Part shown: positions 2,281-21,490 of the stretch, one piece after another
How the letters are laid out: each line of letters starts with the position of its first letter
How positions within the stretch are numbered: the first letter of the stretch is position 1
DNA from: a virus
Taxonomy: Duplodnaviria > Caudoviricetes
Direction: 5' to 3' (one strand)
Virus record (IMG/VR): IMGVR_UViG_3300014205_000015
Coordinates: 13,731-77,730 of that record
DNA length: 64,000 bases
Translations under genes and position numbers: made by a program
Notes under the pieces: generated by a model
Told to the model about the DNA's origin: nothing
The model's database searches: none
Seen by the model: only the letters and a program-made list of their open reading frames with translations

Positions 2281-2613
2281 TTAGTCCTGCGTGTCTTCTG
2301 CTTGCATCATCGCCAGTTCTTTCAGCTTCGGCAGTCCGCTTAAGAGATCGTCGACAATGGTAGCGCGACAGGAGTTTACTAGGTCTTTGGTTGGTTTTGG
2401 TGCCTTGTACCCGTCAGTAATGCCGACAGATGTAGCGTATGCCAGCAAGACGGCTTTAATGTCTTCGCCAAGCCACTCGCGCCCACCTGCTATCTTGGCT
2501 CGCCATGTATCCTTTAGCGCATGTGTTATCACGGAATGAACGTGGGTGATGAAATCTTCCGCTTTGCGCTGAGCTAATTTGTCGATTGTTTCCGACAAGC
2601 TTCTTTCGTTCAT
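2281..2613 (-). CDS. hypothetical protein
   Basis: 110-aa ORF preceded by the TACCCGGAGG start motif. Confidence 0.75.
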   Translation of the reverse strand: MNERSLSETIDKLAQRKAEDFITHVHSVITHALKDTWRAKIAGGREWLGEDIKAVLLAYATSVGITDGYKAPKPTKDLVNSCRATIVDDLLSGLPKLKELAMMQAEDTQD

Positions 2614-2724
2614 GGGATTACCTCCGGGTAGGGTGTATGCGTTGATTGGCTCGCCAGCCTTCGCCTAAAGTGAAGCGAGGAACGCGGCGTGGCCGAATGC
2701 CTCGCCGCGTGTCCTCGGCTCACG

Positions 2725-3684
2725 TTAGATATGGCAATCGAGAAGCGTAATCCACTGCGTAGGCTGAAGCGAAGCAACCATCTCGTTAAACTTCTCGTCC
2801 CACTGGTCGTCCTCGTTGCTGACGCAAGCCCACCAGCCCATTTCGCCTTGCTCGTACCATTTCCCGTCTTTGACGACAGCAAAGGCTGACAGCATCGGAG
2901 CGGAGTTAATCCAGTCGTCGAGGGTCTGTTCTCCGATTTCTGGTATCTCAAAGTTGTGGGAGTGAGCATCTGCCACGTTAGCATAGCCCGCATCGCGAAG
3001 CCACTGGAAGTATTCGCTACCACGCGGGCGGTCGCTGGCTGGAATCTCCATCCACTTGGCGTGTACCTCTTTGTGTAGCTGGCAGGCAGCACCAAAGTCC
3101 TCGCGTGACATTCCACACTTAGCGATACATTCATCAACCCAATTGGCTCGCCCTCGCTGGGCTTCCACCTTCATCTTGTCCCAGTCAATATCAGCAACAC
3201 ACGCTGAGTCAAAGCCCTCTGGTATCGTTTTCTCGTTCTTCCACTCCCAGCTTGGTTCGGTCGCCACGGCGGACGCTACACCGGATTTGACTTGAAGTCT
3301 CGCTCGATAGCGACCACCGACGCGCCAGTAATCCCATTTCTTGTTGGGATTAGTGCGGGTTATCACTTCCAGGACATTGCCATCGGCACCGACGCGCACA
3401 TAGCCGTATTTGTGCTCTCCCTCTTTGTCGGGATCGGCTGGAGAAACTACAGGCTCCAGTCCATACCAGCCATTAATCCATTCCAAGAAGCCTTCAGCCG
3501 GTTCGGTTGCATTCTCCGTGTACTGGGCATACTCCGCTTTAGCTTCCTCAGTGCGGTCGATTGACTGCACGTACTGGTCGTCGGTGCCAGTGCATTCAAA
3601 CTCATGGTATGGCTGCATGAGTTTGGTTAGGATTTCATCGGTGGGTTCGCTGTCAGTTACCACCATCACAGAAAAATGTGACAT
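2725..3684 (-). CDS. conserved-type hypothetical phage protein (MSHFSVMVV...NPNKKWDYWRVGGRY...LLDCHI)
   Basis: Long ORF; start moved to ATG 3684 by the TACCCGGAGG motif. Confidence 0.85.
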   Translation of the reverse strand: MSHFSVMVVTDSEPTDEILTKLMQPYHEFECTGTDDQYVQSIDRTEEAKAEYAQYTENATEPAEGFLEWINGWYGLEPVVSPADPDKEGEHKYGYVRVGADGNVLEVITRTNPNKKWDYWRVGGRYRARLQVKSGVASAVATEPSWEWKNEKTIPEGFDSACVADIDWDKMKVEAQRGRANWVDECIAKCGMSREDFGAACQLHKEVHAKWMEIPASDRPRGSEYFQWLRDAGYANVADAHSHNFEIPEIGEQTLDDWINSAPMLSAFAVVKDGKWYEQGEMGWWACVSNEDDQWDEKFNEMVASLQPTQWITLLDCHI

Positions 3685-8946: not shown

Positions 8947-9849
8947 ATGAGCAAACCAATGCAGATTACCGCTGGCGACAAGTACGGGCGACTGACTGTT
9001 ATTCGCGAGGTTGACGCGAAGTATTCTGGTGGTCATCGCCAGAGGTGCGTGGAGTGCCGGTGTGAGTGTGGGGTGGTGAAGGAGTATCGGCTTTACACGA
9101 TTCGGAACGGGAACACTAAGTCGTGTGGGTGCTTGGCTAATGAAGTAGCTGGTGCGAATTTGCGGACGCATGGTCTTTCGGATCGAGAGGAGTATCGGAT
9201 TTGGCAGGGAATGCTTAATCGTTGCCGCAACGAGAATGAGGGCAACTACCACAATTACGGAGGTCGCGGGATTGCGGTGTGTGAGCGCTGGAAGGAATCG
9301 TTCGAGAAGTTTTTTGAGGATATGGGTCCACGTCCGTCTGTGAAGCACAGCATTGACCGCATTGACAATGACGGCAACTACGAGCCAGGCAATTGCCGGT
9401 GGGCGACATCGAAGGAGCAGTCTAGGAATAAGCGGGTCAATTATCTCGTATCGCATGATGGCGAAACCAAGTGTGTGTCGGAGTGGGCGGAGAAGCATGG
9501 TCTCAAGTCTTCAGTGCTTTACTATCGGCTGGTTAAGCTTGGGTGGACGTTTGAGAAGTCGGTTAGCTGGCCGTCATTTAACCGTTCTTCCGCTAGGTCT
9601 TGTAATCCGCATTACCGAGTTCCGATGAAGGAGCGGGATGCTTCATGGCAGCGAGAGCATGAGCGACTTGAGGTGATTCGCATTGCGAAAGATCGCCGAG
9701 AACTGGAGTCGTGCGGAGAAAGCTTAGCCAAGTCGCATCGACTGGACGCGAGCGAGTTTAAGTCTCGAGTGGATGCTGCGCTGGTCGAAGGCTGGACGTG
9801 GAAAGGCTCGGTTTTGCGTGCATTGCAAGAGATGGGCTCCGTTGAATAA
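8947..9849 (+). CDS. HNH homing-endonuclease-like protein
   Basis: GDKYGRLTV...CRCECG...KSCGC module, YGGRGIAVCERW, SIDRIDNDGNYEPGNCRWAT. Confidence 0.85.
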   Translation: MSKPMQITAGDKYGRLTVIREVDAKYSGGHRQRCVECRCECGVVKEYRLYTIRNGNTKSCGCLANEVAGANLRTHGLSDREEYRIWQGMLNRCRNENEGNYHNYGGRGIAVCERWKESFEKFFEDMGPRPSVKHSIDRIDNDGNYEPGNCRWATSKEQSRNKRVNYLVSHDGETKCVSEWAEKHGLKSSVLYYRLVKLGWTFEKSVSWPSFNRSSARSCNPHYRVPMKERDASWQREHERLEVIRIAKDRRELESCGESLAKSHRLDASEFKSRVDAALVEGWTWKGSVLRALQEMGSVE

Positions 9850-9854
9850 TTGAC

Positions 9855-9883
9855 TTGCTTTCTGGGGTCCGTTCAGATATGAT
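9855..9883 (+). promoter_or_regulatory. sigma70-like promoter (TTGCTT-17 nt-TATGAT)
   Basis: Start site would fall immediately before the tRNA-like gene. Confidence 0.65.
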
Positions 9884-9890
9884 GCTTTAT

Positions 9891-9964
9891 GGAGTCGGTA
9901 GCTCAGGGGTAGAGCAGCGGGGCATGTAATCCGCGGTTGATGGTTCGAATCCGTCCCGATTCCA
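9891..9964 (+). tRNA. atypical tRNA (Thr-UGU-like, 8-nt anticodon loop)
   Basis: GGAGTCGG/CCGATTCC acceptor, GCTC/GAGC D arm, GCGGG/TCCGC anticodon stem with loop GCATGTAA, GATGG-TTCGAAT-CCGTC T arm. Confidence 0.75.
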
Positions 9965-10000
9965 TTTGTAGTACGTTACGGGCTTTGTGGGAGAAGAGGG

Positions 10001-10261
10001 ATGATTCCTAGACCGACCAACGATTGTTATGTCCCTATTGGCGACTTACCTATGGGTGAAGACAGGTTCAGGATGCTTTCGGAGGAAAACGCTAGGTTGC
10101 GGGCGGCTGGTGCACAGATGGCGATAGCGGCGCTGAGGGTGTCGACTGAGTACGACGGCGTTCATCGGTTGCTACTTGCTGTTTCTGTCTGGGCTAAGGC
10201 GATGGCTGATGAACATGGTCGTGGTGAGAAGGCAGGGGAGCAATCAGATGGTAGAGATTAA
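10001..10261 (+). CDS. hypothetical protein
   Basis: 86-aa ORF with GAGGG RBS. Confidence 0.65.
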   Translation: MIPRPTNDCYVPIGDLPMGEDRFRMLSEENARLRAAGAQMAIAALRVSTEYDGVHRLLLAVSVWAKAMADEHGRGEKAGEQSDGRD

Positions 10262-10577
10262 AGCTGGTGTGGAGTTGGATAGGGCGGTAGCAGAGGCGAT
10301 AGGCTGGCGGATTGAAGCATGTCGCCCATTGGACTGGATTGGTTCAAATGGCGTTTCTGTTGAGGAGTTTCGTCCTTCTGTGGATTTGAACTGGGCGTTT
10401 GCTGCTGCGGAGAAGGTGGGGCTGTTTGACCGCTGGGTAATTGGCCAATGGTCGAATCCACCACAATCTGGATGGGGCATAGAAGGCGATGATAGCCCAG
10501 TTACTTCCTTGTACCCTACCCCTGCACTTGCTATTTGCGCTGCGATACTTGCATTAGGGAAGGAGAGCGAATCGTGA
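10248..10577 (+). CDS. phage ABA-sandwich/DUF2591-like protein
   Basis: ELDRAVAEAIGW...FRPSVDLNWAF...TPALAICAAIL pattern. Confidence 0.65.
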   Translation: MVEIKAGVELDRAVAEAIGWRIEACRPLDWIGSNGVSVEEFRPSVDLNWAFAAAEKVGLFDRWVIGQWSNPPQSGWGIEGDDSPVTSLYPTPALAICAAILALGKESES

Positions 10578-10816
10578 GCATACGTGTTACGGCGGTGTTG
10601 ACTTGCGACACATGCGGTCGGGAATGTGGCTTGGAGCCAGTTTCTAAGGCTGGAGAGGCGACTGTCATTGCGCAACGGTTACGAGTCGCAGCGGAACATT
10701 GTGGTTGGAAGACTATTAGCCGTGGTAGATTCCATACTCCGACGCATTACTGTCCTTGTTGCCAGGACAAGCCGATGAAACCTGTGCCGCGGGCGAAGTG
10801 CGATTCGGGATTATGA
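10574..10816 (+). CDS. small zinc-finger protein
   Basis: CDTC...CPCC; GTG start overlaps the upstream TGA. Confidence 0.6.
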   Translation: MSIRVTAVLTCDTCGRECGLEPVSKAGEATVIAQRLRVAAEHCGWKTISRGRFHTPTHYCPCCQDKPMKPVPRAKCDSGL

Positions 10817-10852
10817 CCCCTGCACTCATAGGCTCATAAAGCCCGCCAGTCG

Positions 10853-11134
10853 CTAGATAAACGTAGTATCGCCTACAACGACAGCCACCGAGTCCTGGCT
10901 GTAGCTCTTGCGGCAGTTCGTAATGGCTTCCTGTAGTTCATTAACCTGATTGCCAAGAATCTCACAGACCCAGCAGGCGTTCTGCCACGGGGCGTCCCAG
11001 TCAGACCCACCGCAGAAGTGGACGCGATATACATTGCTCCGAACCACTAGGTTCATCGACGCGGCGAAGTTAGCCCAATCGCCCTGAGTAAGCTTGTTGT
11101 CGGAATTTCCGATTTGAACTACCACTGTCTTCAT
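10853..11134 (-). CDS. hypothetical phage protein (QIGNSDNKLTQ motif)
   Basis: 93-aa ORF. Confidence 0.7.
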   Translation of the reverse strand: MKTVVVQIGNSDNKLTQGDWANFAASMNLVVRSNVYRVHFCGGSDWDAPWQNACWVCEILGNQVNELQEAITNCRKSYSQDSVAVVVGDTTFI

Positions 11135-11138
11135 TGCT

Positions 11139-11846
11139 TTATTCCTGTGTTCGGTGGCTAGGAGAGTCAGCTACCATTTTTGCCAGCGCCCCAAACACTG
11201 CTATGAATGTCTCCTGTGAGACTGATCGCCAGTTGTCTGCGCGATGGCGGATGATGGATAGCTTGCACTGCTCGATTGCTTCGGCTAGGTCGTCTGGTAG
11301 GTCTCGCAAGGTATCCCAGTTGAGAATCATGGGCGGCGTTTCTTCTGATTTTGGTTCTGAGTGGCTTTTGTAGCGCTGGATTATCCGCATTGCAGTGTCG
11401 TATGCGCGGGCATCTTCCCATGAAGTCCATGAATTTAACCGGCAATCCATCTCTAGCGCTTCGGTAGTATTTGATTCGACCCAAGCCTCAAAAGATTCGA
11501 GTGACCCATCGGAGTTCCCGGCTGGTTTTGGTTCATCCAGTTTCGATTCAACGGTCCTGAGCCGCATGTCTAGTTCAGCGATTGCGTCCTCCACGGGTCG
11601 AGATGGCAGGCGTCCCCGTAACTCATCAATTAGCGCTTCGACATCATCAACATTGTCCCAACCATCACCGCCAATGGCACGAAACTCTTCACGCCACTCC
11701 GCGAATGACTTCTGTTGTGGTGATGCTTCCTTGTCCGCTAGTCGGGCATCCGCGCCCGAACAAGCGGATGCAATAGGTTGGCTACCTCCGCACTTGGTAC
11801 ACACAGGTCCATCGTTCATGTAATTACACTTGCATATCCAAGTCAT
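11139..11846 (-). CDS. hypothetical protein with an N-terminal RanBP2-like zinc finger
   Basis: WICKCNYMNDGPVCTKCG. Confidence 0.7.
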   Translation of the reverse strand: MTWICKCNYMNDGPVCTKCGGSQPIASACSGADARLADKEASPQQKSFAEWREEFRAIGGDGWDNVDDVEALIDELRGRLPSRPVEDAIAELDMRLRTVESKLDEPKPAGNSDGSLESFEAWVESNTTEALEMDCRLNSWTSWEDARAYDTAMRIIQRYKSHSEPKSEETPPMILNWDTLRDLPDDLAEAIEQCKLSIIRHRADNWRSVSQETFIAVFGALAKMVADSPSHRTQE

Positions 11847-12109
11847 CGGTGTTCCCTTTCCATTTCAATTTTAGAGCGTTTGACTTCTTGGATTGCTGCT
11901 TTAATTCCATCCTCTTTGGTTGGTCCGACACAATGCGTCATGGGCCAACCGCTGTGGAAGCGGTAGCTGTGCTGTCCGTCCATCTTCGGAGAGTGCATTT
12001 GCATCTGACCGAAAAAGAAGTCGAGCATGTCCGCTGCTTCGTCAATGTCTCCATCGTGGCATTTGTCGTAGTCACGTAGTCGCTCGAAAATTGGTCTCGA
12101 GTCAGTCAT
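11843..12109 (-). CDS. hypothetical protein
   Basis: 88-aa ORF with GGAG RBS; overlaps its neighbours. Confidence 0.7.
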   Translation of the reverse strand: MTDSRPIFERLRDYDKCHDGDIDEAADMLDFFFGQMQMHSPKMDGQHSYRFHSGWPMTHCVGPTKEDGIKAAIQEVKRSKIEMEREHR

Positions 12110-12398
12110 TGGGTTTCTCCATTCGGGTAATTAAGAACTCACAGCACTCTCTCCATCCACGCTTATAGTCTGCTGAAGCGTCGACATCGAAAAGGGCATC
12201 GGCAGCGCCTCTGATAAGCGTCTCTTCCTTGGACCATGTAACGGGTTGGTCGCTCACAGCATCTGGTGAGCTGGCGACGGGTTGCGGCGTGTTCACGCGT
12301 GGAAACAGGGGCTTCACTATCAGCACTGCCATGCAACTCGCAAAAAAGACGGCAAGAAACATAACCAGGACAGCAAGGGCGAAGTCGTACTTATTCAT
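12102..12398 (-). CDS. hypothetical protein with an N-terminal membrane anchor
   Basis: MNKYDFALAVLVMFLAVFFASCMAVLIV. Confidence 0.6.
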   Translation of the reverse strand: MNKYDFALAVLVMFLAVFFASCMAVLIVKPLFPRVNTPQPVASSPDAVSDQPVTWSKEETLIRGAADALFDVDASADYKRGWRECCEFLITRMEKPND

Positions 12399-12451
12399 TG
12401 GTTTGACTCGGCACAAGGGGTAATTCAAACAACGACACTAATCTTACCACA

Positions 12452-12480
12452 TTGACCCAAAACAGCAAGTTGGTTATGAT
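12452..12480 (+). promoter_or_regulatory. sigma70-like promoter (TTGACC-17 nt-TATGAT)
   Basis: Near-consensus; drives the tRNA-like RNA at 12491. Confidence 0.75.
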
Positions 12481-12490
12481 TCAGATTACT

Positions 12491-12648
12491 GGGGTGCAAG
12501 GAGCGGTGAAGTGTCCGCTACGGCTGCTAGAGGTCGACGTTGCCAGTTTCAACGGAATCAGCGAATTGATGCGAGGCGACATGACGCGAAGCACAAACAT
12601 TCGCTACCGGGCAGCGGCGCACGGTGGTTCAAGTCCATCGGCACCCAC
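12491..12648 (+). ncRNA. expanded tRNA-like RNA (~158 nt)
   Basis: GGGTGC/GCACCC terminal stem, CGGTGG-TTCAAGT-CCATCG T arm, AGCGG/CCGCT hairpin in the D-arm position, multi-hairpin insert closed by GCTGC/GCAGC. Confidence 0.65.
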
Positions 12649-12667
12649 TTAGTCAAACAATGGGAGA

Positions 12668-13021
12668 GTGATTGTGAACGAAAGCGATGATGGAGTTACG
12701 AGAGCTGAAAACATCCCTCAGGACGCAATGCAGTACATGGTCCTCCGTGGATGGATGGTTGAGAGTTTAACTCGCGACGATTCCACGGTTCCACCAACAC
12801 TGTACTACACTCTAAGGAGGAGTGATTCCATAGACTTGATGGACGTATTGCGAGACATGACAGCAGAGCTTCTGGATATGCTCAAGCGGTTTGCAGCCCA
12901 CGGCGAGCAGTTGTGGGATGACGAAAACTTCCGGCAAGGCTACAAAAAGGTTTCTAGCGGCGATCTTGTCGATTGCCGGAATTTGTTGCGGAAGTTCGGT
13001 GTCACAGAATTCAACGAATGA
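12668..13021 (+). CDS. hypothetical protein
   Basis: 117-aa ORF with GGGAG RBS. Confidence 0.65.
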   Translation: MIVNESDDGVTRAENIPQDAMQYMVLRGWMVESLTRDDSTVPPTLYYTLRRSDSIDLMDVLRDMTAELLDMLKRFAAHGEQLWDDENFRQGYKKVSSGDLVDCRNLLRKFGVTEFNE

Positions 13022-13341
13022 GGTGGAAGATGAGAGGTTTACTGTTCCTGATGGCGATTCTGTTTGCAGCGCCCTGCTACTCCCAAGACAGTTACAACTA
13101 CCGGGGAGGCTATGAACGGTTTGGTAGTCCCACGGCGAGATGGAGTACGAATCCACCCCGACTGTACTCAAGTGATGGGACGTATCTCGGGGAACTGAGT
13201 CAGAACAGGTATCGGGCTGACAGCGTGTCGAACCCCTATTCACGTTTCGGAAGCAGGTACAGCCCTGACTCAATCAACAATGTCCACGGACCTTACGGTA
13301 GGTATCGCACGCAGCCGATTTACGTTTATCCAAGGTGGTGA
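13018..13341 (+). CDS. secreted Tyr/Gly/Ser-rich protein (NPYSRFGSRYSPDSINN motif)
   Basis: Signal-peptide-like N-terminus; ATGA overlap with the upstream gene. Confidence 0.7.
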   Translation: MRWKMRGLLFLMAILFAAPCYSQDSYNYRGGYERFGSPTARWSTNPPRLYSSDGTYLGELSQNRYRADSVSNPYSRFGSRYSPDSINNVHGPYGRYRTQPIYVYPRW

Positions 13342-13347
13342 GCTATT

Positions 13348-13620
13348 ATGGTAAGTGGCGAACGGATTATTGGCGGGAACATACAGTTCAGGCGTTTTGC
13401 GTACCTGCACAAACGGGATCGCAGTAAGTTCGGCTTGCTGGACGCGGTTGATTATCGGAACGCATGCGATCATCTTGGCAGTGGCTATTACATTCGGACG
13501 ACGTGGCTCACGTTAGAGGAAGAACACGCCCAAGGCTCAGATTGTGATCGTCGGAGGGAGATAGTCTCATCGATATTTATGAATCCGGCATCAGTCGCAT
13601 TTGTCGGTCGTGCTGAGTAA
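13348..13620 (+). CDS. hypothetical protein
   Basis: 90-aa ORF with GGAG RBS. Confidence 0.6.
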   Translation: MVSGERIIGGNIQFRRFAYLHKRDRSKFGLLDAVDYRNACDHLGSGYYIRTTWLTLEEEHAQGSDCDRRREIVSSIFMNPASVAFVGRAE

Positions 13621-13789
13621 TGAGCCAACCAAATCGCTACGAAGAAGAAACCACGGACTACCGCAGAGGATTCGTGGAAGGACAAGCAGGCGAACGAGAC
13701 GTTTACCTGCTCTACACTGGATGTACTGACGTGGAATAATACTGCCGTGGTTACTTGGATGGGATATTGGAACAGAAACAGGAGCCAAA

Positions 13790-14260
13790 ATGAGCGAACG
13801 ATGGGACAATCATTTCTTGCGATTGTGTCAGGACCATGCAAGGATGTCGAAAGACCCAAGCACACGAGTTGGCGCTGTAATAGTCGGACCTGACGGGGAA
13901 ATTAGGTCGGCTGGATTCAACGGTTTCCCACGCGGAATTCTCGATAGCGACGAACGCCTGAACGACCGAGACACAAAGCTAAAGCTGATGGTCCACGGGG
14001 AAATGAACGCGATTTTAGCAGCTGCGAGAGTTGGGACGCCGGTGAAGGGATGCACGCTGTACCTCGCGGCTACTGATTCATCGGGGATTGTGTGGGGCGG
14101 TCCTCCGTGTGTGCGCTGTACAGTTGAAGTAATTCAGGCAGGCATAACAGAAGTGGTGTCTTACCCCAAACGCAGTGTTCCATCAAAATGGCATGAGGAT
14201 TTGGCAATGGCTGAAACTCTTTTACGTGAAGCGGGGATTGGTTACAGATGCGTCGATTAG
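13790..14260 (+). CDS. dCMP deaminase (cytidine/deoxycytidylate deaminase family)
   Basis: SKDPSTRVGAVIV, HGEMNAI, PCVRC zinc-binding motifs. Confidence 0.92.
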   Translation: MSERWDNHFLRLCQDHARMSKDPSTRVGAVIVGPDGEIRSAGFNGFPRGILDSDERLNDRDTKLKLMVHGEMNAILAAARVGTPVKGCTLYLAATDSSGIVWGGPPCVRCTVEVIQAGITEVVSYPKRSVPSKWHEDLAMAETLLREAGIGYRCVD

Positions 14261-14547
14261 AAATCAAACCCGGAGAAACCTACGGCGACCTCAAAATCAT
14301 CAAGGAAGTCGAATCCAGGGGCAAACGTCACTTTTTATGCCAGTGTGCCTGTGGCGGAAGTCCGTCAGTTCACCGACTGGGGCACTTACGCTCAGGTCAC
14401 GCCACGACATGCGGTCGCTGTGGTTTCGAATTTGAGGGACAGCGGAAGACAATCGCAGATTGGGCGGAATTGTATGGGCTGAAGGAGTCTACGTTGCGAG
14501 CTCGGCTAAAGGTGATGGGCGTTAAAGAGGCACTGGAGCGGACATGA
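14248..14547 (+). CDS. HNH-family derivative lacking the nuclease core
   Basis: N-terminal GETYGDL...CQCACG module joined directly to the C-terminal HTH (TIADWAELYGLKESTLRARL). Confidence 0.6.
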   Translation: MRRLEIKPGETYGDLKIIKEVESRGKRHFLCQCACGGSPSVHRLGHLRSGHATTCGRCGFEFEGQRKTIADWAELYGLKESTLRARLKVMGVKEALERT

Positions 14548-14927
14548 GCCAAGCCGACGAATACATCCAGGAAGCACTGGAGCTAGCAGAGGACAATGCT
14601 GGTGACCGCTGCCCGCTGTCGTCCGATGCGTGTGGTGCATACTTCGAGCAGATACGGGACTTGTTACGGAAGGTGAGCGAAAACGCCGGACAGAACGTGA
14701 GCCAAGCCGATTCCGAGGAAATGCACACTGCCCTAGAGCAGATAGCAGCGCTAGCCCATCATGGTGGACTGATAGGATTCTCGGACGTAGACAAGTGCCT
14801 GAGAGAAGTACGGCGGATTTCGTTGAAGTGGTGGGACAAGAGCGAGTGTGCTAGGCTGCAAGAGGAAATAGACGCAGTTCCACCAGGGTTTTCAGATTCT
14901 TCGCACTTTCCTATTGACCCACAGTAG
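14544..14927 (+). CDS. hypothetical protein
   Basis: 127-aa ORF, ATGA overlap. Confidence 0.6.
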   Translation: MSQADEYIQEALELAEDNAGDRCPLSSDACGAYFEQIRDLLRKVSENAGQNVSQADSEEMHTALEQIAALAHHGGLIGFSDVDKCLREVRRISLKWWDKSECARLQEEIDAVPPGFSDSSHFPIDPQ

Positions 14928-14942
14928 CAAGCTGTATAAAGT
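14914..14942 (+). promoter_or_regulatory. sigma70-like promoter for the RAMP/array operon (TTGACC-17 nt-TAAAGT)
   Basis: Shares TTGACCCA and AGCAAG with the 12452 promoter. Confidence 0.55.
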
Positions 14943-14949
14943 ATTAAGT

Positions 14950-15018
14950 GTTGGCTCCCGGAAAAGACTCAACAATACAAACCGTCGATTTACTGTGCGT
15001 TTCTTTCCGGGAGCCAAC
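14950..15018 (+). repeat. 15-bp perfect inverted repeat in the leader
   Basis: GTTGGCTCCCGGAAA at 14950-14964 and TTTCCGGGAGCCAAC at 15004-15018. Confidence 0.85.
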
Positions 15019-15053
15019 GCAGTGATTCGGCGGTTTTTTATTGGAGTGATGCG

Positions 15054-15539
15054 ATGGCTATTGTTGAAAAAGCAAGAGTGAAATGGGCAGATAAAGAGGC
15101 GGCAATTCGGTCGCTCGAGTCTGGCGGTAAAATCGACCCACTGGATTTGATTGAAGCCGCTCGCGATCCTGAACATCCGTGTCACTCTGATTTCACTTGG
15201 GACATCGACCAAGCGGCTGCCGAACGGTGGCGGGATCAAGCCCGTGAGTTGATTCGCTCGTGCAAGTTTGAAGTGCGAGTGGAAGACGTAGGCAGCAGGG
15301 TTTGCATGTACGTTCCATCTGGCGACGAAGATGCAACATTCGTGTCACTACCAAAGATTCGCAGCAAGGCTCAGGCGTCTGCGGTTGTTCTAGCGGAGGT
15401 TGCCATGTTGCTTGGGAATGCTTCTCGGGCATACGGGATAGCGTTGTCGAAAACGAACATTGTTGGCGCTGACGTTGTTGTTCAGTTGAAAGCGATTCGC
15501 GAACTGGTGGCTACGCTGAAGGCTGAGCTAGAGGATTGA
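15054..15539 (+). CDS. partner protein of the RAMP/array locus
   Basis: LIEAARDPEHPCHSDFTWDIDQAAAERWRDQARELIR motif; lies immediately upstream of array 1. Confidence 0.8.
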   Translation: MAIVEKARVKWADKEAAIRSLESGGKIDPLDLIEAARDPEHPCHSDFTWDIDQAAAERWRDQARELIRSCKFEVRVEDVGSRVCMYVPSGDEDATFVSLPKIRSKAQASAVVLAEVAMLLGNASRAYGIALSKTNIVGADVVVQLKAIRELVATLKAELED

Positions 15540-15545
15540 TTCATT

Positions 15546-15863
15546 GGTCAAGGAATGTCGGGGCGTGGTTCGGCGTGGTGTTTCAGGTTTCGGTATGCTT
15601 GGGCGGTCATGGAGAGGTCGGGCTAGGTGCGCTCTTGCGAGTCGAGTCGAGGCGGTCGAGTCCGTGCGGGGTGCGGAGTGCTCTGGTTGGGTCGGTCCAG
15701 GTTGGGTTCGGCGGTCGCGGTTAGGAATGGCGTGCTGCGGCGAGTCGGGGCTCGTTCCGGTTGGGCGGTCAAAGTGGGTCAAGGCTTGGTGCGAAGTGGT
15801 GCGTCCTGGAAAGGCGGTCGAGGCGGGGATTGGAGTGGCCCGTATTGGTCCGACAAGGCGGTC
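15546..15863 (+). repeat. pentamer-coded array 1: six units of GGTC+(NN-GGY-like)x8-11; putative guide RNAs
   Basis: Units start at 15546, 15605, 15654, 15713, 15767 and 15816; lengths 59, 49, 59, 54, 49, 44 (all 5n+4). Confidence 0.9.
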
Positions 15864-15951
15864 AGAGAGAGAAGGTTTTTGGTTTGGAGAGTGTTTCTCC
15901 AGACTCCTACACAACAGGGGTGTTTCACCCCGCAATTAAGGAGAAGCCATT

Positions 15952-16716
15952 ATGGCAAAAGCATCTGGTGTTTTGGAAGCGATTGAAGTTGAACCACTAC
16001 GAGTTGGCAGTATGCAAGTCTGGCTGCGTGGTATCACGCCGCTGATCTGTAATCGATTGGCGGCAAAGGCACGGCGCGAGCTGTTGCTTCCGAAGGGACG
16101 AAAGTCGACGGCGGAAAAGCAGCAATCGCTGAAGCATGATCCGGTAGCTGAGTTCCGAGACAGCATGAATGTGCGATCTGGTGTTGGACCTACACGAGTA
16201 GTGTTTCCTGCGCCCGCAGTGAAGGGTTCTATGGCTACTGCCGCGCTGGAGACGAAAGGCACGAACAAAACGCAGATTGGTCGTTTGGTTCGTGTGGCTG
16301 GTTATTCACTGGATGTCTACGGAATACCAGAATTATTCATGGCTATTGTTCGTTCGGCGGACATGGCTCGGACGCCCGACGTTCGGACGCGAGCGATCTT
16401 GCGCGAGTGGTGCATGCCTGTTACCGTTCAGTACGTCAAGCCGCAGATGTCTGAGCAGGCTATTATGCAATTGCTTGCCAACGGCGGAATTATCATCGGA
16501 GTAGGTGATTTTCGTCAAGAAAAAGGCAAAGGCGATTTTGGCTGCTACGAGGTCGTCACCGAAGCCGATTGTAAGGACATTATCAAAAATGGCGGGTTGA
16601 AGCAGCAAGACGCTGCGATCAAGACTCCCGTCTGCTTCGACAGTGACACTGAAGAACTTTTAGGCTGGTTCCAACAGGAAGTTAAAGTTAGAGGAAAGGG
16701 AGAACTGGTTGCCTAA
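15952..16716 (+). CDS. RAMP/Cas7-like RNA-binding protein (Vipr-like effector)
   Basis: N-terminal VWLRGITPLICN strand and C-terminal Gly-rich loop GIIIGVGDFRQEKGKGDFGCYEV; flanked by pentamer arrays. Confidence 0.75.
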   Translation: MAKASGVLEAIEVEPLRVGSMQVWLRGITPLICNRLAAKARRELLLPKGRKSTAEKQQSLKHDPVAEFRDSMNVRSGVGPTRVVFPAPAVKGSMATAALETKGTNKTQIGRLVRVAGYSLDVYGIPELFMAIVRSADMARTPDVRTRAILREWCMPVTVQYVKPQMSEQAIMQLLANGGIIIGVGDFRQEKGKGDFGCYEVVTEADCKDIIKNGGLKQQDAAIKTPVCFDSDTEELLGWFQQEVKVRGKGELVA

Positions 16717-16725
16717 CTGTCAATT

Positions 16726-17376
16726 GGTCGCGGAGAGGTATGGCAACATAAGTCACGGTCCGGCGAGTCATGTCCGGGCGGTCATGGAATGGTTGGGCAC
16801 GGCACCATATGGTATGTCGCGGCTTGGCGTGGCGGTCCCGGTTGGGTCCGGTAAAGCTGGTCGGGGCGGGGTGTTGCGAGCCCGGGTTTGGCGGTCGGGG
16901 TACGGTTCGGCACGGCGGGTCGGAGCATGGAATGTTGCGGCGGTCGCGTCGAGGTGCGGTGCGTTTGGGCGAGTCCAGGCGCGTCGGGGTATGGTTGGGC
17001 GGTCGAGGTGAGGAAAGGCTGCGCTAGTTCAGGCGAGTCATGGCACTGGCGGTCGCGGTATGTCCTGACTAGTCATGTGAGGAAAGGCGAGGCGGGGCGG
17101 TCGAGTCGGGTCTTGGAGAGGTTCGGTCCGTTGCGGTCTGTCCGGGCGGTTTGTCAAAGCTAGGCTGCGCGTGGCGGTCATGGTGACGAGAGGCTGGGTA
17201 TGGTACGTCGCGGCGGGTCTGGGGCCGGTGAGGCGGTCAAGATTCGTCAGGTCGCGGACAGGCGGGGCGGGGTACGCTTAGGCGGGCCTAGTCCTGGCGG
17301 TCGCGTCGGGGTCTGGAGTGGCACGGTCGGGCAAGGTGAGTCGAGCTCTGGCGTGGTGAGTATCGGCAAGCCGGTC
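16726..17376 (+). repeat. pentamer-coded array 2: twelve units of GGTC+(NN-GGY-like)n; putative guide RNAs
   Basis: Units start at 16726, 16780, 16834, 16893, 16942, 17001, 17051, 17099, 17148, 17176, 17235 and 17299; three units (17001, 17051, 17148) carry 1-nt irregularities. Confidence 0.9.
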
Positions 17377-17415
17377 GTGATTGACTGTTAAGAGGTCATG
17401 CAGCACAATTGCTGC

Positions 17416-19329
17416 ATGACCTCTCCTTTTTTTGATTTAGTCCCAAAAGACCCAATTGAGAATCTCCGTTGGCGCATTCGTTGCCGCGAGCGTGCATTGG
17501 CTGATAAGCGGTTTCGAGACTCGCTATATCAAGCGTGCATGAGTGATCTTTGTTTCTGGATGGCATTTGCCTGTTGGGGATACGACCCGCGAGCCCGCTT
17601 CAAGATCGTTCCATTTGTACCCTATCCACATCAACAAGCTGTGTTCGTGGCGATGGATGAAGCCATAAGCACTGCCGAACGTGAAGAACGATCGGTCGAC
17701 GTGATCCTGGACAAAAGTCGGGCTCAAGGTGGATCTTTTGGATATCTTTGGGTCGACCTTCGGCGCTGGCTGCGCGATCCAATGTTTTCAGCAGGTTTTG
17801 TTACGAAAAATGAAGATTCGATTGATTCAAAGAGCGACTCATCGACGGTGCTGTGGAAAGTGGCATGGGCGATTGAGCGATTGCCTTTCTGGATGAAGCC
17901 CAATTACGAACGGCATCTTGGTCAGCACACTTTCATTAACAACGACAACGGTTCGTTATTGCGAGGATACTCTGCAGGGCAAGACGTGGCAGCCGGTGGC
18001 CGTACGACTGTGTTCACAGTGGACGAAGCTGGCGCGAGAGACTTCGTTTCAGGTGGCAAAGACGAAGCGGTTCAGGAGTCTATTCAAGACGTGTCCAACT
18101 GCATTCGCATGGTCTCTGCTCGTTACGTGGATGCAGGTGTCTTTCACGAAGCCTGCGAAAACCCAGACACGAAAAAGAACGGTATTCATCTTATACTGGA
18201 CTGGAAAGACCACCCCGCTCAAAGCAAGCACTCTTACATTGTGCGAGAGGGAATCGCGGTTGCCATAAAGCCGGAAGATCAAGCGGCGGTCACGGAATAC
18301 CACCGAAAACACCCTGACCTGCGATCCCGACTGGAAAGAAAAGGATTTAAATTTGAAGTGGTTGTTCGCAGTCCGTGGTACGACTCTCGATGTTTGCGCC
18401 CGACAGCCACCCCGCGACTGATAGCTTCGCAGCTCGACCGCAACCCTCGCGGAGCAGTAGGTAAAGTTTTCGCATCAGACCTCTTGGACCGCATGAAGCG
18501 AGAGCACTGCAAGGGTCCAGTTTGGGTGGGCAATCCAGTATTTGACTCAGAAACCTGCAAACTAACGGGATTGATTCCCAGGGATGACGGCTTGCTGAAA
18601 CTGTGGTTCAAGCCGGGCATCGACAACTCACCGCCGCTGGGACCGTTCACCGCGGGATGCGACATCGCTTCGGGTGGAGTTGGGGCGTATTCCTCAAACT
18701 CGGTCATAACGGCGCTGGACGACAGAACCGGGGAGCAAGTCTTGGAGTACACGGTCAAGGGACTCGAGCCACGACCGTTTGCACGCCGGGTGGTTGGGCT
18801 GTGCATGTGGCTTAGAAACGCACTGCTTGGCTGGGAGGATTCCGGGGTGTCTGGTGGTTTTGCTAAGGAAATCATGGAAGTTCTTTATTATGGTTCCGTG
18901 TTCTATCGGGACGTAAACCAGCTCGGTTCCCAGAAGAAAAGCCGCAAGCCTGGCTGGCCGTGCCGTGACGCAGACAAAGCGGACGATTTTGAGCAAATGG
19001 CGCTGGCGATGGAGACTGGGAAGTTCGTTCCGCGTTCCGAGGAAATGATTGTCGAGTGTTCTGAATATGAGTGGGACGGCACCAAAATCATTCACGCACC
19101 GTCGAAAAACAAGGGGGCGGCTGACAAGAATCACGCCGACCGCGCTATAGCAATGGCAGGCTGTTGGAAGGTCTTTAGCACCGATAATGCAACCCGTAAG
19201 ATTGACACAGACGTGGAAAACGGTCAGAATCCAGAGTACGGCTCGTTTTTATGGCGAGAGCAGCAAGAGCGCCGGAACGTGAAAACGGGTAGCCCGAAGT
19301 TCGGGATTAGGGACATTATTGGACGCTAA
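17416..19329 (+). CDS. terL: terminase large subunit
   Basis: DKSRAQGGS Walker A-like, VDEAG Walker B, GCDIASG and HADRAIA RNase H-fold acidic motifs; lies upstream of portal and capsid. Confidence 0.9.
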   Translation: MTSPFFDLVPKDPIENLRWRIRCRERALADKRFRDSLYQACMSDLCFWMAFACWGYDPRARFKIVPFVPYPHQQAVFVAMDEAISTAEREERSVDVILDKSRAQGGSFGYLWVDLRRWLRDPMFSAGFVTKNEDSIDSKSDSSTVLWKVAWAIERLPFWMKPNYERHLGQHTFINNDNGSLLRGYSAGQDVAAGGRTTVFTVDEAGARDFVSGGKDEAVQESIQDVSNCIRMVSARYVDAGVFHEACENPDTKKNGIHLILDWKDHPAQSKHSYIVREGIAVAIKPEDQAAVTEYHRKHPDLRSRLERKGFKFEVVVRSPWYDSRCLRPTATPRLIASQLDRNPRGAVGKVFASDLLDRMKREHCKGPVWVGNPVFDSETCKLTGLIPRDDGLLKLWFKPGIDNSPPLGPFTAGCDIASGGVGAYSSNSVITALDDRTGEQVLEYTVKGLEPRPFARRVVGLCMWLRNALLGWEDSGVSGGFAKEIMEVLYYGSVFYRDVNQLGSQKKSRKPGWPCRDADKADDFEQMALAMETGKFVPRSEEMIVECSEYEWDGTKIIHAPSKNKGAADKNHADRAIAMAGCWKVFSTDNATRKIDTDVENGQNPEYGSFLWREQQERRNVKTGSPKFGIRDIIGR

Positions 19330-19561
19330 AACAATCTATTCCAGCGGTAAAACCTGGAGGGAGAGAACGATGGAAGAACTGTTTGAAGAGAAGATGAAAG
19401 TCGTGTTGGAGCGGCTACGCACGAACAACACTGGCGATGAAGCGCTGAAGTACACGCAGGCATTGGATAACCTTGCCCGCGCACGAACCACATGGTTCGC
19501 AAACGAGAAATCAGAACCAACGGAAGCAAAAACGACCAAGAAACAAGGGGCCGGCGCGTAA
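19319..19561 (+). CDS. hypothetical protein
   Basis: 80-aa ORF overlapping the terL end; start uncertain. Confidence 0.55.
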   Translation: MDAKTIYSSGKTWRERTMEELFEEKMKVVLERLRTNNTGDEALKYTQALDNLARARTTWFANEKSEPTEAKTTKKQGAGA

Positions 19562-19580
19562 GGCGTCCGACAACAATAAG

Positions 19581-19680
19581 GGCATAAGACGGAGTAGCTA
19601 CCGTCCAGAATGCCTCTAACATTCGCAGCCTTAGAGGGGTCGCGACGCTGAAAAAGCGTTTCGGCCCCCTTTTCTTTTTT
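19581..19680 (+). terminator. structured leader ending in a Rho-independent terminator-like stem upstream of portal
   Basis: GGCAT/ATGCC enclosing GACGG-AGTAGCTA-CCGTC; TCTAA/TTAGA; AGGGGTCG...CGGCCCCT followed by a T tract. Confidence 0.55.
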
Positions 19681-19690
19681 AGGCTGCTAG

Positions 19691-21490
19691 ATGATTGACC
19701 TCTCCAATCCCGAACGACGAGCAAGGCTGCAGAAGGCTATCAGGTCGTCACGAGACGCACTTGAGCCATTTCGTCGGGTACGGAAAGAACTAATCAAAGA
19801 CTATGTTGGCTCGTGGTATCCAGGTGGAAGAGACAGCGAGAACGAAAGAGTCCTCGTTAATCTCATCAATCAGACTGCCCGTATCTACACGATTGCCCTG
19901 GCAGCGAACAACCCGCAAGTCTTAGTCTCCACCCCACGGACTGAAAACATCGCCTTCGCTCGCAGGTTCGAAGTGAACCTGAACAAGCTGATTAGCGACA
20001 TGACCCTGGACAAGACGTTCCGGCAGATTGTCACAGACGCCTTCTTCTGTCTGGGTTGTGGCGTGGTGATGATGCGAGACACCAGTACCCGCTTCCACGG
20101 CTTACTAGAGTCTGAGGAGGACGTGTGGTTGGATCCAGGTGAACCGTGGCTCAATCGGGTTTCGCTGGACGACCTCATCTTAGACATGCCAGCCAAAGAG
20201 CTTTCGAAGATGCGCTATTGCGGGCATCGCTACCGCGCCGACTACGAAAAGGTGATGGACGAGCCCGGCTATTCGAAGAAGGCTAAGGACAAGCTCAAGC
20301 CAACCGGGAGAGAACACCACGACAGCACAGGCGCAGCTCGAGACATTGCTTCGGAGTACGGCAGCGCCCAAGACGACGACCTGAAAGACATGATTTGGCT
20401 CATGGATATTTGGGTGGCTGAGAACAATTCAGTCGTGACGATGGCATGTGACCAAGTTGACCTGGAACCTCTGATTGAGCGCGAATGGACTGGCTCTCAG
20501 GCGGGACCGTACAAGTTCCTCTCCCTGGGAGATACTCCAGACAACGTAATCCCAACGTCACCTGCAATCAATCTGAAGGGAATGCACGACCTACAGAACA
20601 GGCTGCATCGCAGGATGGAGGATGATTCCGACGCGCACCGATTGGTGAACGTGTATCCGCCTGGCAAGGAGGATGATGCGAAGCGAATTCAGACGGCAGA
20701 GCGCAATTCGTGGCAAAGGATGACTAATCCTGCGGATATTAAGCAGGTTGAAGTTGGCGGTATTGACCAGCGCGACATGGCGATGGCTACGTTCATTCAA
20801 ACGGAATACGACCGTTTCGCTGGTAACCTTCAAGCGATGGGCGGACTTGGAGCGCAAGCTGGGACAGTGGGGCAAGAGGAGTTGATTCACGGTCAGCTAT
20901 CCAAGAACGTGGCTGACATGCGGATGGGTGTGGTGAACTTCGCGGCTGATTGCATCTTGGACCTGGGGAGGTTGATGTGGGAGGACCAGACGCTTGAACT
21001 GCACACTTCAATGCCAGTGGGCAACAGCGGGATTCAAGTCACCTCTGACTGGTCACCCGACTACCGCATGGGTGAGTTCGATGACTACGATTTTCGGGTC
21101 GAACCGTACTCGATGGTCTTCAAAACTCCCCAGCAGCACCTTCAGGAGTATTTCCAGGTGCTACGTGAGATTGCCCCGCTCTGGCCTATGTTCCAGGCGT
21201 CGGGAGCTAGCCTCAACGTCCAGGTTTTAGTGGAAGAGATGGCACGTCTGTTGAATAAGCCGGAAATTACGCAGTTGATTACGTTTGCGACTCCCGCTGA
21301 GATGCTCGGTGGAGACCAGAATACAGTCAGACAGAGCCCGAACACGACACGAACTAACATCCGCAAAAATATTTCGACTGGCGGCACCGAGCAATCGCGC
21401 AGCAATTCCTTGATTCGCGACCTCATGGCAGGGCAGTCCTCAAGTACCAACGGACAGCAACAAGCAGCTATGGAAAGGGCACCCGCATGA
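19691..21490 (+). CDS. portal protein
   Basis: 599 aa, helical, between terL and scaffold/capsid; Gln-rich tail. Confidence 0.75.
   Translation: MIDLSNPERRARLQKAIRSSRDALEPFRRVRKELIKDYVGSWYPGGRDSENERVLVNLINQTARIYTIALAANNPQVLVSTPRTENIAFARRFEVNLNKLISDMTLDKTFRQIVTDAFFCLGCGVVMMRDTSTRFHGLLESEEDVWLDPGEPWLNRVSLDDLILDMPAKELSKMRYCGHRYRADYEKVMDEPGYSKKAKDKLKPTGREHHDSTGAARDIASEYGSAQDDDLKDMIWLMDIWVAENNSVVTMACDQVDLEPLIEREWTGSQAGPYKFLSLGDTPDNVIPTSPAINLKGMHDLQNRLHRRMEDDSDAHRLVNVYPPGKEDDAKRIQTAERNSWQRMTNPADIKQVEVGGIDQRDMAMATFIQTEYDRFAGNLQAMGGLGAQAGTVGQEELIHGQLSKNVADMRMGVVNFAADCILDLGRLMWEDQTLELHTSMPVGNSGIQVTSDWSPDYRMGEFDDYDFRVEPYSMVFKTPQQHLQEYFQVLREIAPLWPMFQASGASLNVQVLVEEMARLLNKPEITQLITFATPAEMLGGDQNTVRQSPNTTRTNIRKNISTGGTEQSRSNSLIRDLMAGQSSSTNGQQQAAMERAPA

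What the first reader, a model, noticed from the sequence alone, without database searches (positions are those of the whole stretch)
17235..17372. Last two guides decode to motifs of a related phage's terminase; this genome's terL is mismatched
Unit 17235 NN = AA TC AG GC CA GG GG AC TA GG TA CT, compatible with KSRAQGGTYGYL. The resident terL Walker A (17713-17748) is KSRAQGGSFGYL and encodes Ser and Arg with different codon families (AGT, CGG); 19/24 nt match. Unit 17299 NN = GC GG CT GT AC CG AA GA GA CT GT GA TC AA, compatible with AGLVTRNEDLVDSK, versus resident AGFVTKNEDSIDSK (17791-17832); 22/28 nt match, mostly conservative changes. Rough hand binomial estimate for the 22/28 hit alone is about 0.01 over 18 units and both strands, and two hits land in one gene. 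Inference: guides against a close competitor's packaging gene, with self escaping through mismatches.
Basis: partly seen in the sequence, partly recalled or inferred. Interest (0 to 1): 0.93.

Follow-up and report, generated by a model that had tools for sequence, protein, structure and literature searches.

The report
VIPR guide RNAs aimed at rival terminase
The two repeat units are guide RNAs of a phage VIPR system, a CRISPR-related DNA silencer first described in 2026 preprints; they spell the first two letters of each codon of two conserved terminase motifs as rival phages carry them, while this phage's own terminase is altered at those letters, so this is a clear new example of a known kind.

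Summary

- **The match is real.** Units 17235-17298 and 17299-17372 each consist of a G-K-Y triplet plus two free bases, repeated. Read with one target base skipped, the free bases match resident terL at 19/24 and 22/28. These are the best hits in the whole window, in codon frame, and 0 of 300 shuffles reach them.
- **Relatives match better.** Their terL scores up to 23/24 and 25/28. No perfect target exists in IMG/VR or the JGI metagenomes.
- **The system is VIPR.** The neighbouring 254-aa protein folds as a Cas7/Csm3-type RAMP. Its profile hits the solved SUSP1 Vipr protein with the guide-binding residues conserved. All 14 homologous loci fetched carry such arrays. The system is therefore VIPR (bioRxiv 10.64898/2026.04.26.720920), in its tail-less "staggered" array form.
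- **New here.**
  - Rival VIPR phages carry reciprocal guides against each other's terL.
  - Resident TerL departs from 158 otherwise invariant columns at only two residues, and both lie inside the last guide's footprint (P=0.004).
  - Another unit targets relatives' vipr, and the resident vipr is recoded there too.

This scan has found VIPR systems before on other DNA. No expression or binding data exist for this phage.

The parts
15054..15539 (+). vap-like accessory gene (161 aa, phrog_15946)
   Evidence: Conserved next to vipr in 11 of the VIPR loci at 24-79% identity. No Pfam or NCBIfam family. Its AF2 model (pLDDT 79) has no significant PDB match and no nuclease fold was seen.
15548..15859 (+). 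vrRNA array 1, about 6 staggered units
   Evidence: Period-5 signal and Viterbi parse. No target was found in the sampled loci.
15952..16716 (+). vipr gene (254-aa RAMP protein, phrog_4652)
   Evidence: AF2 pLDDT 80. Foldseek top hits are Csm3/Cas7 chains at E about 1e-5. The profile hits PDB 36pp 'SUSP1 Vipr protein' at E=1.8e-6, with G-D-F-R aligned to SUSP1 D177-W178-R179 and R147 aligned to thumb R138.
16727..17372 (+). vrRNA array 2, about 11-12 staggered units without tails
   Evidence: Of 176 scaffold triplets, G is first in 93%, GGY makes up 48% and GTY 28%. All 16 units start with GTC and 12 of 16 end with GGC.
16727..16779 (+). Unit aimed at relatives' vipr thumb motif ADMNKTPD[IV]R
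   Evidence: 19/20 to L022:3406, against 15/20 to the resident vipr (ADMARTPDVR); shuffle maximum 16. The AR allele occurs in 1 of 106 close cluster representatives.
17235..17298 (+). vrRNA unit with 12 NN, aimed at terL motif K-S-R-A-Q-G-G-T-Y/F-G-Y-L
   Evidence: Self 19/24 at 17713-17748. L008 and L019-21 score 23/24.
17299..17372 (+). vrRNA unit with 14 NN, aimed at terL motif A-G-x-V-T-R-N-E-x-L-[IV]-D-S-K
   Evidence: Self 22/28 at 17791-17832. Relatives reach up to 25/28.
17391..17434 (+). Intrinsic terminator ending array 2 (15-bp stem plus T-run)
   Evidence: The stem also contains the terL ribosome-binding site and both candidate ATG starts (read directly).
17398..19329 (+). Resident terL (large terminase)
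   Evidence: tblastn to annotated TerL of Salmonella phages 9NA and Sasha and others; phrog_5989; 17 IMG/VR relatives.
17713..17748 (+). Resident counterpart of the guide-1 target (79% NN match)
17791..17832 (+). Resident counterpart of the guide-2 target (79% NN match). Carries AAA (K) at 17806-17808 and TCG (S) at 17818-17820, where all relatives have R and L.

Best explanation
The stretch holds the last two guide RNAs (vrRNAs) of a phage-encoded VIPR system. The system runs vap (15054-15539), vrRNA array 1, vipr (15952-16716), vrRNA array 2, terminator. The mechanism is taken from the published SUSP1 and P. fulva systems and is inferred here. Vipr protomers polymerise along each vrRNA, one per pentamer. 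They bury the G-K-Y triplet and present the two NN bases. These bases pair with double-stranded DNA while every third target base is skipped, forming a protein-held R-loop that blocks transcription. The skipped base coincides with the codon wobble position, so synonymous changes cannot give escape. The two guides read two conserved motifs in the N-terminal ATPase region of terL as carried by related phages, both VIPR-less relatives and a rival VIPR-bearing clade. The resident terL scores only 79% for each guide. This is partly because it uses other codon families for Ser and Arg, and partly because of two amino-acid changes (R to K, L to S) at positions invariant in all sampled relatives. The most likely role is interference with competing relatives, whether co-infecting phages or prophages, while sparing self. 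Shown here: the array anatomy, the skip-1 match statistics, better matches in relatives, Vipr homology, and the recoding signature. Inferred: expression, filament formation, silencing, and the actual sparing of self.
For: Statistics: both hits are unique window-wide maxima at period 3 only, in frame, and 0 of 300 shuffles reach them. Against all fetched loci the scores are 23/24 and 25/28, versus controls of 16-19 from other periods or reversed order.

Generality: 173 units from 14 other loci gave further in-frame, sense-strand hits in terL and in vipr homologues, such as 19/20, 19/20, 20/22, 17/18 and 25/26.

System identity: every one of the 14 loci encoding a homologue of the 254-aa protein has a period-5 array on the same strand. 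The protein has a RAMP fold. It shows sequence homology to SUSP1 Vipr with conserved G-loop and thumb residues. A conserved vap-like neighbour is present. The published description matches: GGY/NN repeats, 9-16 per guide, 1-nt skip at the wobble position, staggered arrays, and targets in competing phages and other VIPRs.

Self versus non-self: self scores are 79%, 79% and 75%, against 96%, 89% and 95% for the best relatives. L018 and L019/L020 show the same pattern, and L019's last guide hits the window-type terL. Resident TerL differs from 158 columns invariant in 15 homologues at only two sites, both in the guide-2 footprint, hypergeometric P=0.004. The resident vipr carries a rare AR allele in the unit-16727 footprint.
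Against: No target with 100% NN match exists in IMG/VR or the JGI metagenome contigs.

The resident score of 79% sits only just under the 80% informatic cut-off used in the preprints, and mismatch tolerance is unknown.

TerL protein acts in trans, so silencing a rival's terL in a mixed infection need not exclude that rival.

This system differs from the characterised type II. It has no 3' tails, GTC is a frequent scaffold triplet, F stands in place of the stacking W, and the protein is 50 residues longer. The mechanism is therefore an extrapolation.

Thirteen of the 16 units have no identified target.
Confidence: 0.85

Rival explanations
1. Autoregulation. The two guides act on the phage's own terL, 0.3-0.4 kb downstream, with deliberately partial complementarity, to time or damp late-gene expression.
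For: The sites lie in the first 400 nt of the adjacent gene. Self match is 79%, far above background.
Against: Self is among the poorest matches in the family. 15-16 of 21 other terL genes score higher. The only two resident departures from family-invariant residues lower the match. L018 and L019 guides match their own terL at only 65-80% but others at 85-95%. Published VIPR guides show no self hits at 80% or above.
Confidence: 0.06
2. Relic guides. The cassette moved between phage lineages by recombination, and these units record past conflicts without a present target.
For: No perfect target was found in two large collections. Vipr is 86-89% identical between phages whose TerL is only 60-78% identical, and the closest terL relatives lack the cassette, so it is gained and lost.
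Against: The scaffold triplets and unit boundaries of both units are intact. Three lineages keep different terL-directed guides at the same end of the array, which argues for ongoing selection. Matches of 89-96% lie well within the range treated as targets in the preprints.
Confidence: 0.07
3. Chance resemblance between a G-rich pentamer repeat and a coding sequence.
For: Short guides do give chance hits at 80% or above. For example, the 6-NN fragment at 17052 scores 12/12 and unit 16894 scores 15/18 in the own genome, both at shuffle level.
Against: 0 of 300 shuffles reach the observed scores. The two hits are colinear and in frame in one gene. Relatives score higher still. Independent loci show the same behaviour.
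Confidence: 0.01

Closest known systems
VIPR systems, characterised type II of Escherichia phage SUSP1 and a Pseudomonas fulva prophage (bioRxiv 10.64898/2026.04.26.720920; structures in 10.64898/2026.04.26.720927)
   Same: A single small RAMP protein plus an accessory gene, flanked by pentamer-repeat guide RNAs. Two free bases per repeat read DNA with one base skipped, and the skipped base is aligned to the codon wobble position. The G-loop D-(W/F)-R and the thumb Arg are conserved. Targets lie in competing phages and in other VIPRs, and self scores stay below 80%.
   Different: There is no conserved 3' tail or pseudoknot; units abut with a 4-nt step. The scaffold is G-K-Y, with GTC at every unit start. 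The protein is 254 aa against 202 aa, and only about 55 residues align by sequence. The target here is the terminase ATPase region of close relatives, a target the main texts do not mention ('terminase' appears 0 times in the first paper).
Staggered vrRNA arrays (fig. S18 of the same preprint)
   Same: Guides follow each other without spacer or tail, the end of one marking the start of the next with a 1-nt offset (legend read). Here the junction is GGC-G-GTC, and GGC-A-GGC in distant loci.
   Different: Only the figure legend could be read. Which of the seven VIPR types this locus belongs to could not be determined.
Solo and native vrRNAs targeting relatives' VIPR systems (bioRxiv 10.64898/2026.10.15.759431)
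   Same: Guides are aimed at rivals' vipr genes and self-match scores are lower than non-self scores. Unit 16727 does this here.
   Different: Those cases are Enterobacteriaceae phages of the SUSP1 family. Here the phage is an uncultured 77.7-kb phage from a landfill metagenome, and an essential packaging gene is targeted as well.
Class 1 CRISPR Cas7/Csm3 backbone filaments
   Same: Same RAMP fold. One protomer binds per guide repeat, with thumb-driven base flipping.
   Different: No CRISPR repeats or spacers and no cas1/cas2. Three guide bases and one target base are displaced per repeat, instead of one and one per six.
Free-standing homing endonucleases and marker exclusion in T4-like phages (from my own knowledge)
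   Same: A selfish cassette sits next to a conserved essential gene. It attacks that gene in relatives, and the resident allele is immune through target-site differences.
   Different: Recognition here is RNA-guided, and no nuclease was detected in the cassette.

Membership tests
VIPR | Vipr protein is a minimal RAMP (RRM core, G-loop, thumb) homologous to the published Vipr proteins | tested here: met
   AF2 model pLDDT 80. Top Foldseek hits are Csm3/Cas7 at E 2e-5 to 1e-3. Profile hit to PDB 36pp SUSP1 Vipr at E=1.8e-6, with D-F-R aligned to D177-W178-R179 and R147 aligned to R138.
VIPR | vrRNAs of about 9-16 tandem pentamers with a conserved GGY (or related) triplet alternating with hypervariable NN, next to vipr | tested here: met
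   16 units of 6-14 NN. G is first in 93% of triplets, GGY makes up 48% and GTY 28%. The same holds in all 14 homologous loci.
VIPR | Targets follow the 1-nt skip rule, with the skipped base at the codon wobble position | tested here: met
   Only period 3 gives outliers, and all are in codon frame.
VIPR | A conserved accessory gene (vap) in the operon | tested here: met
   The 161-aa ORF is conserved beside vipr in 11 loci. Whether it equals one of vap1-6 could not be tested, because no sequences are available in the texts held.
VIPR | No guide matches its own genome at 80% NN or above | tested here: inconclusive
   The three guides with known targets score 79%, 79% and 75% on self. Two short units reach 83% and 100% in the own genome, but at shuffle level.
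VIPR type II (SUSP1-like) | Each vrRNA ends in a conserved tail of about 40 nt with a pseudoknot | tested here: not met
   Units abut directly (GGC-G-GTC). Only the last unit is followed by a hairpin, which is the terminator. The locus therefore fits the staggered architecture and not type II.
VIPR | vrRNAs are expressed, co-purify with Vipr, and direct DNA binding and transcriptional silencing | not testable with these tools
CRISPR-Cas | Identical direct repeats separating spacers, plus cas1/cas2 adaptation genes | tested here: not met
   No such repeats. The neighbouring genes are a deaminase, a small HNH-like protein, vap and terL.

The most novel reading that the evidence does not exclude
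The VIPR cassette and the recoded, guide-resistant terL allele 0.3-0.4 kb away (and the recoded vipr allele inside the cassette) form one tightly linked selfish unit. In mixed infections it disables the terL and vipr of relatives. Genomes or recombinants then do well only if they inherit the resistant alleles together with the cassette. This would be an RNA-guided analogue of homing-endonuclease marker exclusion, and it would force amino-acid change at otherwise invariant terminase residues. The idea is suggested by four results: Vipr is 86-89% identical in phages whose TerL is 60-78% identical; the cassette is present or absent at one fixed site; rival cassettes carry reciprocal guides; and P=0.004 for the recoding.
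Probability: 0.25. Interest if true: 0.6.

Novelty: new member of a known kind. Interest (0 to 1): 0.4.

Why it matters
It adds a natural case to a system described only in 2026 preprints, and three points stand out.

- **An essential packaging gene is the target.** An uncultured environmental phage aims wobble-skipping guides at the terminase of its close relatives, a target class the preprints' main texts do not mention.
- **The predicted cost of escape is visible.** Because synonymous changes cannot evade the guide, the resident terminase carries two amino-acid changes at positions invariant across homologues down to 47% identity. The resident vipr carries a rare allele in another guide's footprint.
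- **Rival cassettes target each other.** Near-identical cassettes carry guides against each other's terL, which gives a compact natural pair for measuring VIPR mismatch tolerance.

It also points to a cultured actinophage, Gordonia phage Pipp, that has the same tail-less array form and could serve as a laboratory model.

Tried and rejected
- **TRAP-like ring-binding RNA or CsrA-type sponge** (triplets with 2-nt spacers). I considered this first. I dropped it because unit lengths vary (6-14 NN) and the NN track coding sequences.
- **Translation of the array, or NNG-codon reading.** There is no long ORF, and TAG would stand where Tyr is needed.
- **pac or TerS binding-site idea.** Relatives package without the cassette.
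- **Rfam.** Only a tRNA at 9892-9963 was found. There is no hammerhead or other family in 9000-20000.
- **Pfam and NCBIfam.** Nothing for Vipr, vap or TerL.
- **Exact NN patterns of both guides.** 0 hits in IMG/VR and 0 in the JGI metagenome contigs.
- **TerL against PDB sequences.** No meaningful hit, so the Walker-A label stays untested.
- **vap fold.** No PDB match at E 0.001 or below, so neither a nuclease nor a DNA-binding fold is shown.
- **Sequencing runs.** No RNA holder is listed. The only full holder is a landfill metagenome that may be the source.
- **blastn of 15000-19400 against cultured phages.** No match.
- **Supplementary tables of the VIPR preprint.** Not held, so the VIPR type could not be assigned.

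Full report
**1. What is in the sequence**

On the + strand there are two G-rich, period-5 tracts, at 15548-15859 and 16727-17372. They flank a 254-aa gene at 15952-16716.

Each tract splits into units of the form GTC-NN-(G-K-Y-NN)n-GGC. Successive units are joined by a single G, so the step at a junction is 4 nt instead of 5. Of 176 scaffold triplets, 93% begin with G, 48% are GGY and 28% are GTY. All 16 units start with GTC.

The finding covers the last two units: 17235-17298 with 12 NN, and 17299-17372 with 14 NN. A strong intrinsic terminator follows at 17391-17434, and then terL. The window lies in a complete 77,730-bp phage genome with terminal repeats and no tyrosine integrase. The only full DNA holder is a landfill metagenome.

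**2. Is the reported match real?**

Yes. I slid each unit's NN list along both strands of the window with target periods 2 to 6.

| Unit | Period-3 best hit | Next-best in window | Other periods | Shuffle maxima (300 order-shuffles) |
|---|---|---|---|---|
| 17235 | 19/24 at 17713 | 16 | 16-17 | mean 16.2, highest 18 |
| 17299 | 22/28 at 17791 | 18 | 17-19 | mean 18.3, highest 20 |

Only period 3 gives outliers. Both hits are the best in the whole window, on the + strand, in the terL reading frame and colinear. No shuffle reaches the observed values.

**3.

I fetched 17 terL relatives from IMG/VR, and four more turned up in loci found through the 254-aa protein.

- **Relatives match better than the resident gene.** L008 scores 23/24 and 24/28. 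The L019-L021 clade scores 23/24 and 24-25/28. L001-3, 6, 7 and 9 score 25/28.
- **Most relatives pass 80%.** Sixteen and fifteen of the 21 other terL genes pass 80% for guides 1 and 2. The resident gene stands at 79% for both.
- **No perfect target exists.** The exact patterns gave 0 hits in IMG/VR and 0 in the JGI metagenome contigs.

**4. What the system is**

*The protein.* The 254-aa protein belongs to phrog_4652 and has more than 1,400 unannotated metagenomic homologues. All 14 IMG/VR loci that encode a homologue (40-89% identity) have period-5 arrays on the same strand beside the gene. The distant ones use GGC-NN with GGC-A-GGC junctions.

*Fold and homology.* An AlphaFold model (pLDDT 80) matches Csm3/Cas7 RAMP subunits of type III and VII CRISPR complexes at E about 1e-5. 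A profile of the family hits one solved chain, 'SUSP1 Vipr protein' (36pp, E=1.8e-6). In that alignment G-D-F-R sits on SUSP1 D177-W178-R179, and the invariant R147 sits on thumb residue R138. These are the residues the cryo-EM preprint reports as holding the GGY bases.

*The literature.* A search found the system described in 2026 as VIPR:

- 10.64898/2026.04.26.720920 (discovery)
- 10.64898/2026.04.26.720927 (structures)
- 10.64898/2026.10.15.759431 (competition between phages and satellites)

The published features match what is seen here:

- 9-16 YNNGG repeats per guide
- NN read with a 1-nt skip that falls on the wobble position
- no PAM
- transcriptional silencing through a protein-held R-loop 'triplex'
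- targets in competing phages and in other VIPRs
- no self hits at 80% or above
- 'staggered' arrays in which one guide ends where the next begins

*The accessory gene.* The 161-aa ORF at 15054-15539 is conserved beside vipr in 11 loci and is the vap-like gene. Its fold gave no informative match.

*Classification.* The locus is a VIPR of the staggered, tail-less form. It is not the characterised type II.

**5. Generality of the code in this clade**

I scanned 173 units from the other loci against all fetched DNA. Further period-3 hits appeared, all in frame and on the sense strand:

| Guide unit | Target | Score |
|---|---|---|
| L019:4230 | terL AGYVTRNEDL | 19/20 |
| L019:4176 | terL VMYKVAWMLD | 19/20 |
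| L018:1401 | terL | 17/18 |
| L018:1450 | terL | 17/20 |
| L025:4038 | a vipr homologue | 20/22 |
| L018:1216 | a vipr homologue | 17/18 |
| L025:2860 | an unnamed gene in L024 | 25/26 |

Controls (other periods, reversed order) gave 13-19.

**6. Self against non-self**

*Three lineages behave alike.* In the window phage, L018 and L019/L020, the guides nearest terL match their own terL at 65-80% but relatives at 85-96%.

*Targeting is reciprocal.* The window's guides fit the L019-L021 type of terL. L019's last guide fits the window type: 19/20 on L004 and 17/20 on the window, against 14/20 on its own gene.

*The resident TerL is recoded in the footprint.* I aligned 16 non-redundant TerL sequences. 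158 columns are invariant among the other 15, down to 47% identity. The resident protein departs at only two of them:

- R to K, at codon 17806-17808
- L to S, at codon 17818-17820

Both lie in the 14-codon footprint of the last guide (hypergeometric P=0.004). They also lie in the footprint of L019's rival guide. So it cannot be decided whether they avoid the phage's own guide, a rival's guide, or both.

*The same signature appears at vipr.* Unit 16727-16779 reads ADM(N/K)(N/K)TPD(I/M)R and matches relatives' vipr at 19/20. The resident vipr has ADMARTPDVR and scores 15/20. That allele occurs in 1 of 106 close cluster representatives.

**7. Context**

The closest terL relatives (82-88% identity) lack the cassette. 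At the same site they carry HNH endonuclease genes on the opposite strand. Phages with a cassette 86-89% identical in Vipr have TerL only 60-78% identical. The cassette is therefore gained, lost or exchanged at one fixed site just upstream of terL.

This pattern, together with the tight linkage between the guides and the resistant alleles, suggests a selfish 'weapon plus immunity' unit. I rate that reading at about 0.25. No nuclease was detected, and TerL acts in trans, which weakens simple exclusion models.

**8. Limits**

- There are no expression or binding data for this phage, and no RNA run holds the stretch.
- The mechanism is extrapolated from type II systems that differ in tail, scaffold and protein length.
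- Mismatch tolerance is unknown, and 79% is only just under an informatic threshold.
- Thirteen of 16 guides have no target in the sampled DNA.
- The 'Walker A' label is from memory.

**9. Verdict**

The kind of system is already published, and this scan has met it before on other DNA. I therefore class it as a new member of a known kind, with a useful evolutionary signature: amino-acid-level recoding in guide footprints, and reciprocal targeting of terL.

Noticed in passing
window 17389-17434: The terL ribosome-binding site (AAGAGG) and both candidate ATG starts (17398, 17416) lie inside the 15-bp stem of the terminator that ends array 2. Read-through transcripts would therefore sequester the terL start. 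A promoter-like site at 17381-17409 overlaps it.
   Followed up: no
window 16727-16779: The first unit of array 2 spells ADMNKTPD(I)R, the thumb region of relatives' vipr (19/20 in L022). The resident vipr reads ADMARTPDVR (15/20), an allele seen in 1 of 106 close cluster representatives.
   Followed up: yes
L001:3330-3870 (- strand); L006:1530-2070 and 2450-3010 (- strand): terL relatives without VIPR carry one or two HNH-endonuclease-like genes on the opposite strand at exactly the site where the VIPR cassette sits in the window phage.
   Followed up: partly
L032:3113-3340 (Gordonia phage Pipp, MN234179.1, about 33095-33322): A cultured temperate actinophage has a distant Vipr homologue (gene 42, 24% identity). 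It is followed by a GGC-NN staggered array with GGC-A-GGC junctions, which the record annotates as protein-coding gene 43. This is a possible laboratory model for tail-less VIPR arrays.
   Followed up: partly
loci L001-L031: All 12 significant guide-target pairs in this clade have the guide in the same sense as the coding strand, so the template strand would be the paired strand. The preprint reports targets on both strands.
   Followed up: no
L025:2860 -> L024:1648: A 13-NN guide of one distant VIPR locus matches an unnamed ORF (AELYAEKKGLRPP) upstream of vipr in another locus at 25/26. This is the best match in the whole set.
   Followed up: no
window 14248-14547: A 99-aa Cys-rich protein with a weak HNH-family PHROG hit is conserved just upstream of terL in nearly all relatives (53-76% identity). 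It occupies the place where a small terminase or packaging HNH factor would be expected.
   Followed up: no
window 15548-17234: Thirteen of the 16 units have no target in the own genome or in 31 related loci. Earlier notes of the scan read some of them as patatin, primase zinc-ribbon or tRNA motifs; these readings were not tested here.
   Followed up: no
window 13790-14260 and 9892-9963: A dCMP/cytidine deaminase gene (PF00383, E=1.6e-16) and a tRNA gene lie upstream of the cassette.
   Followed up: no
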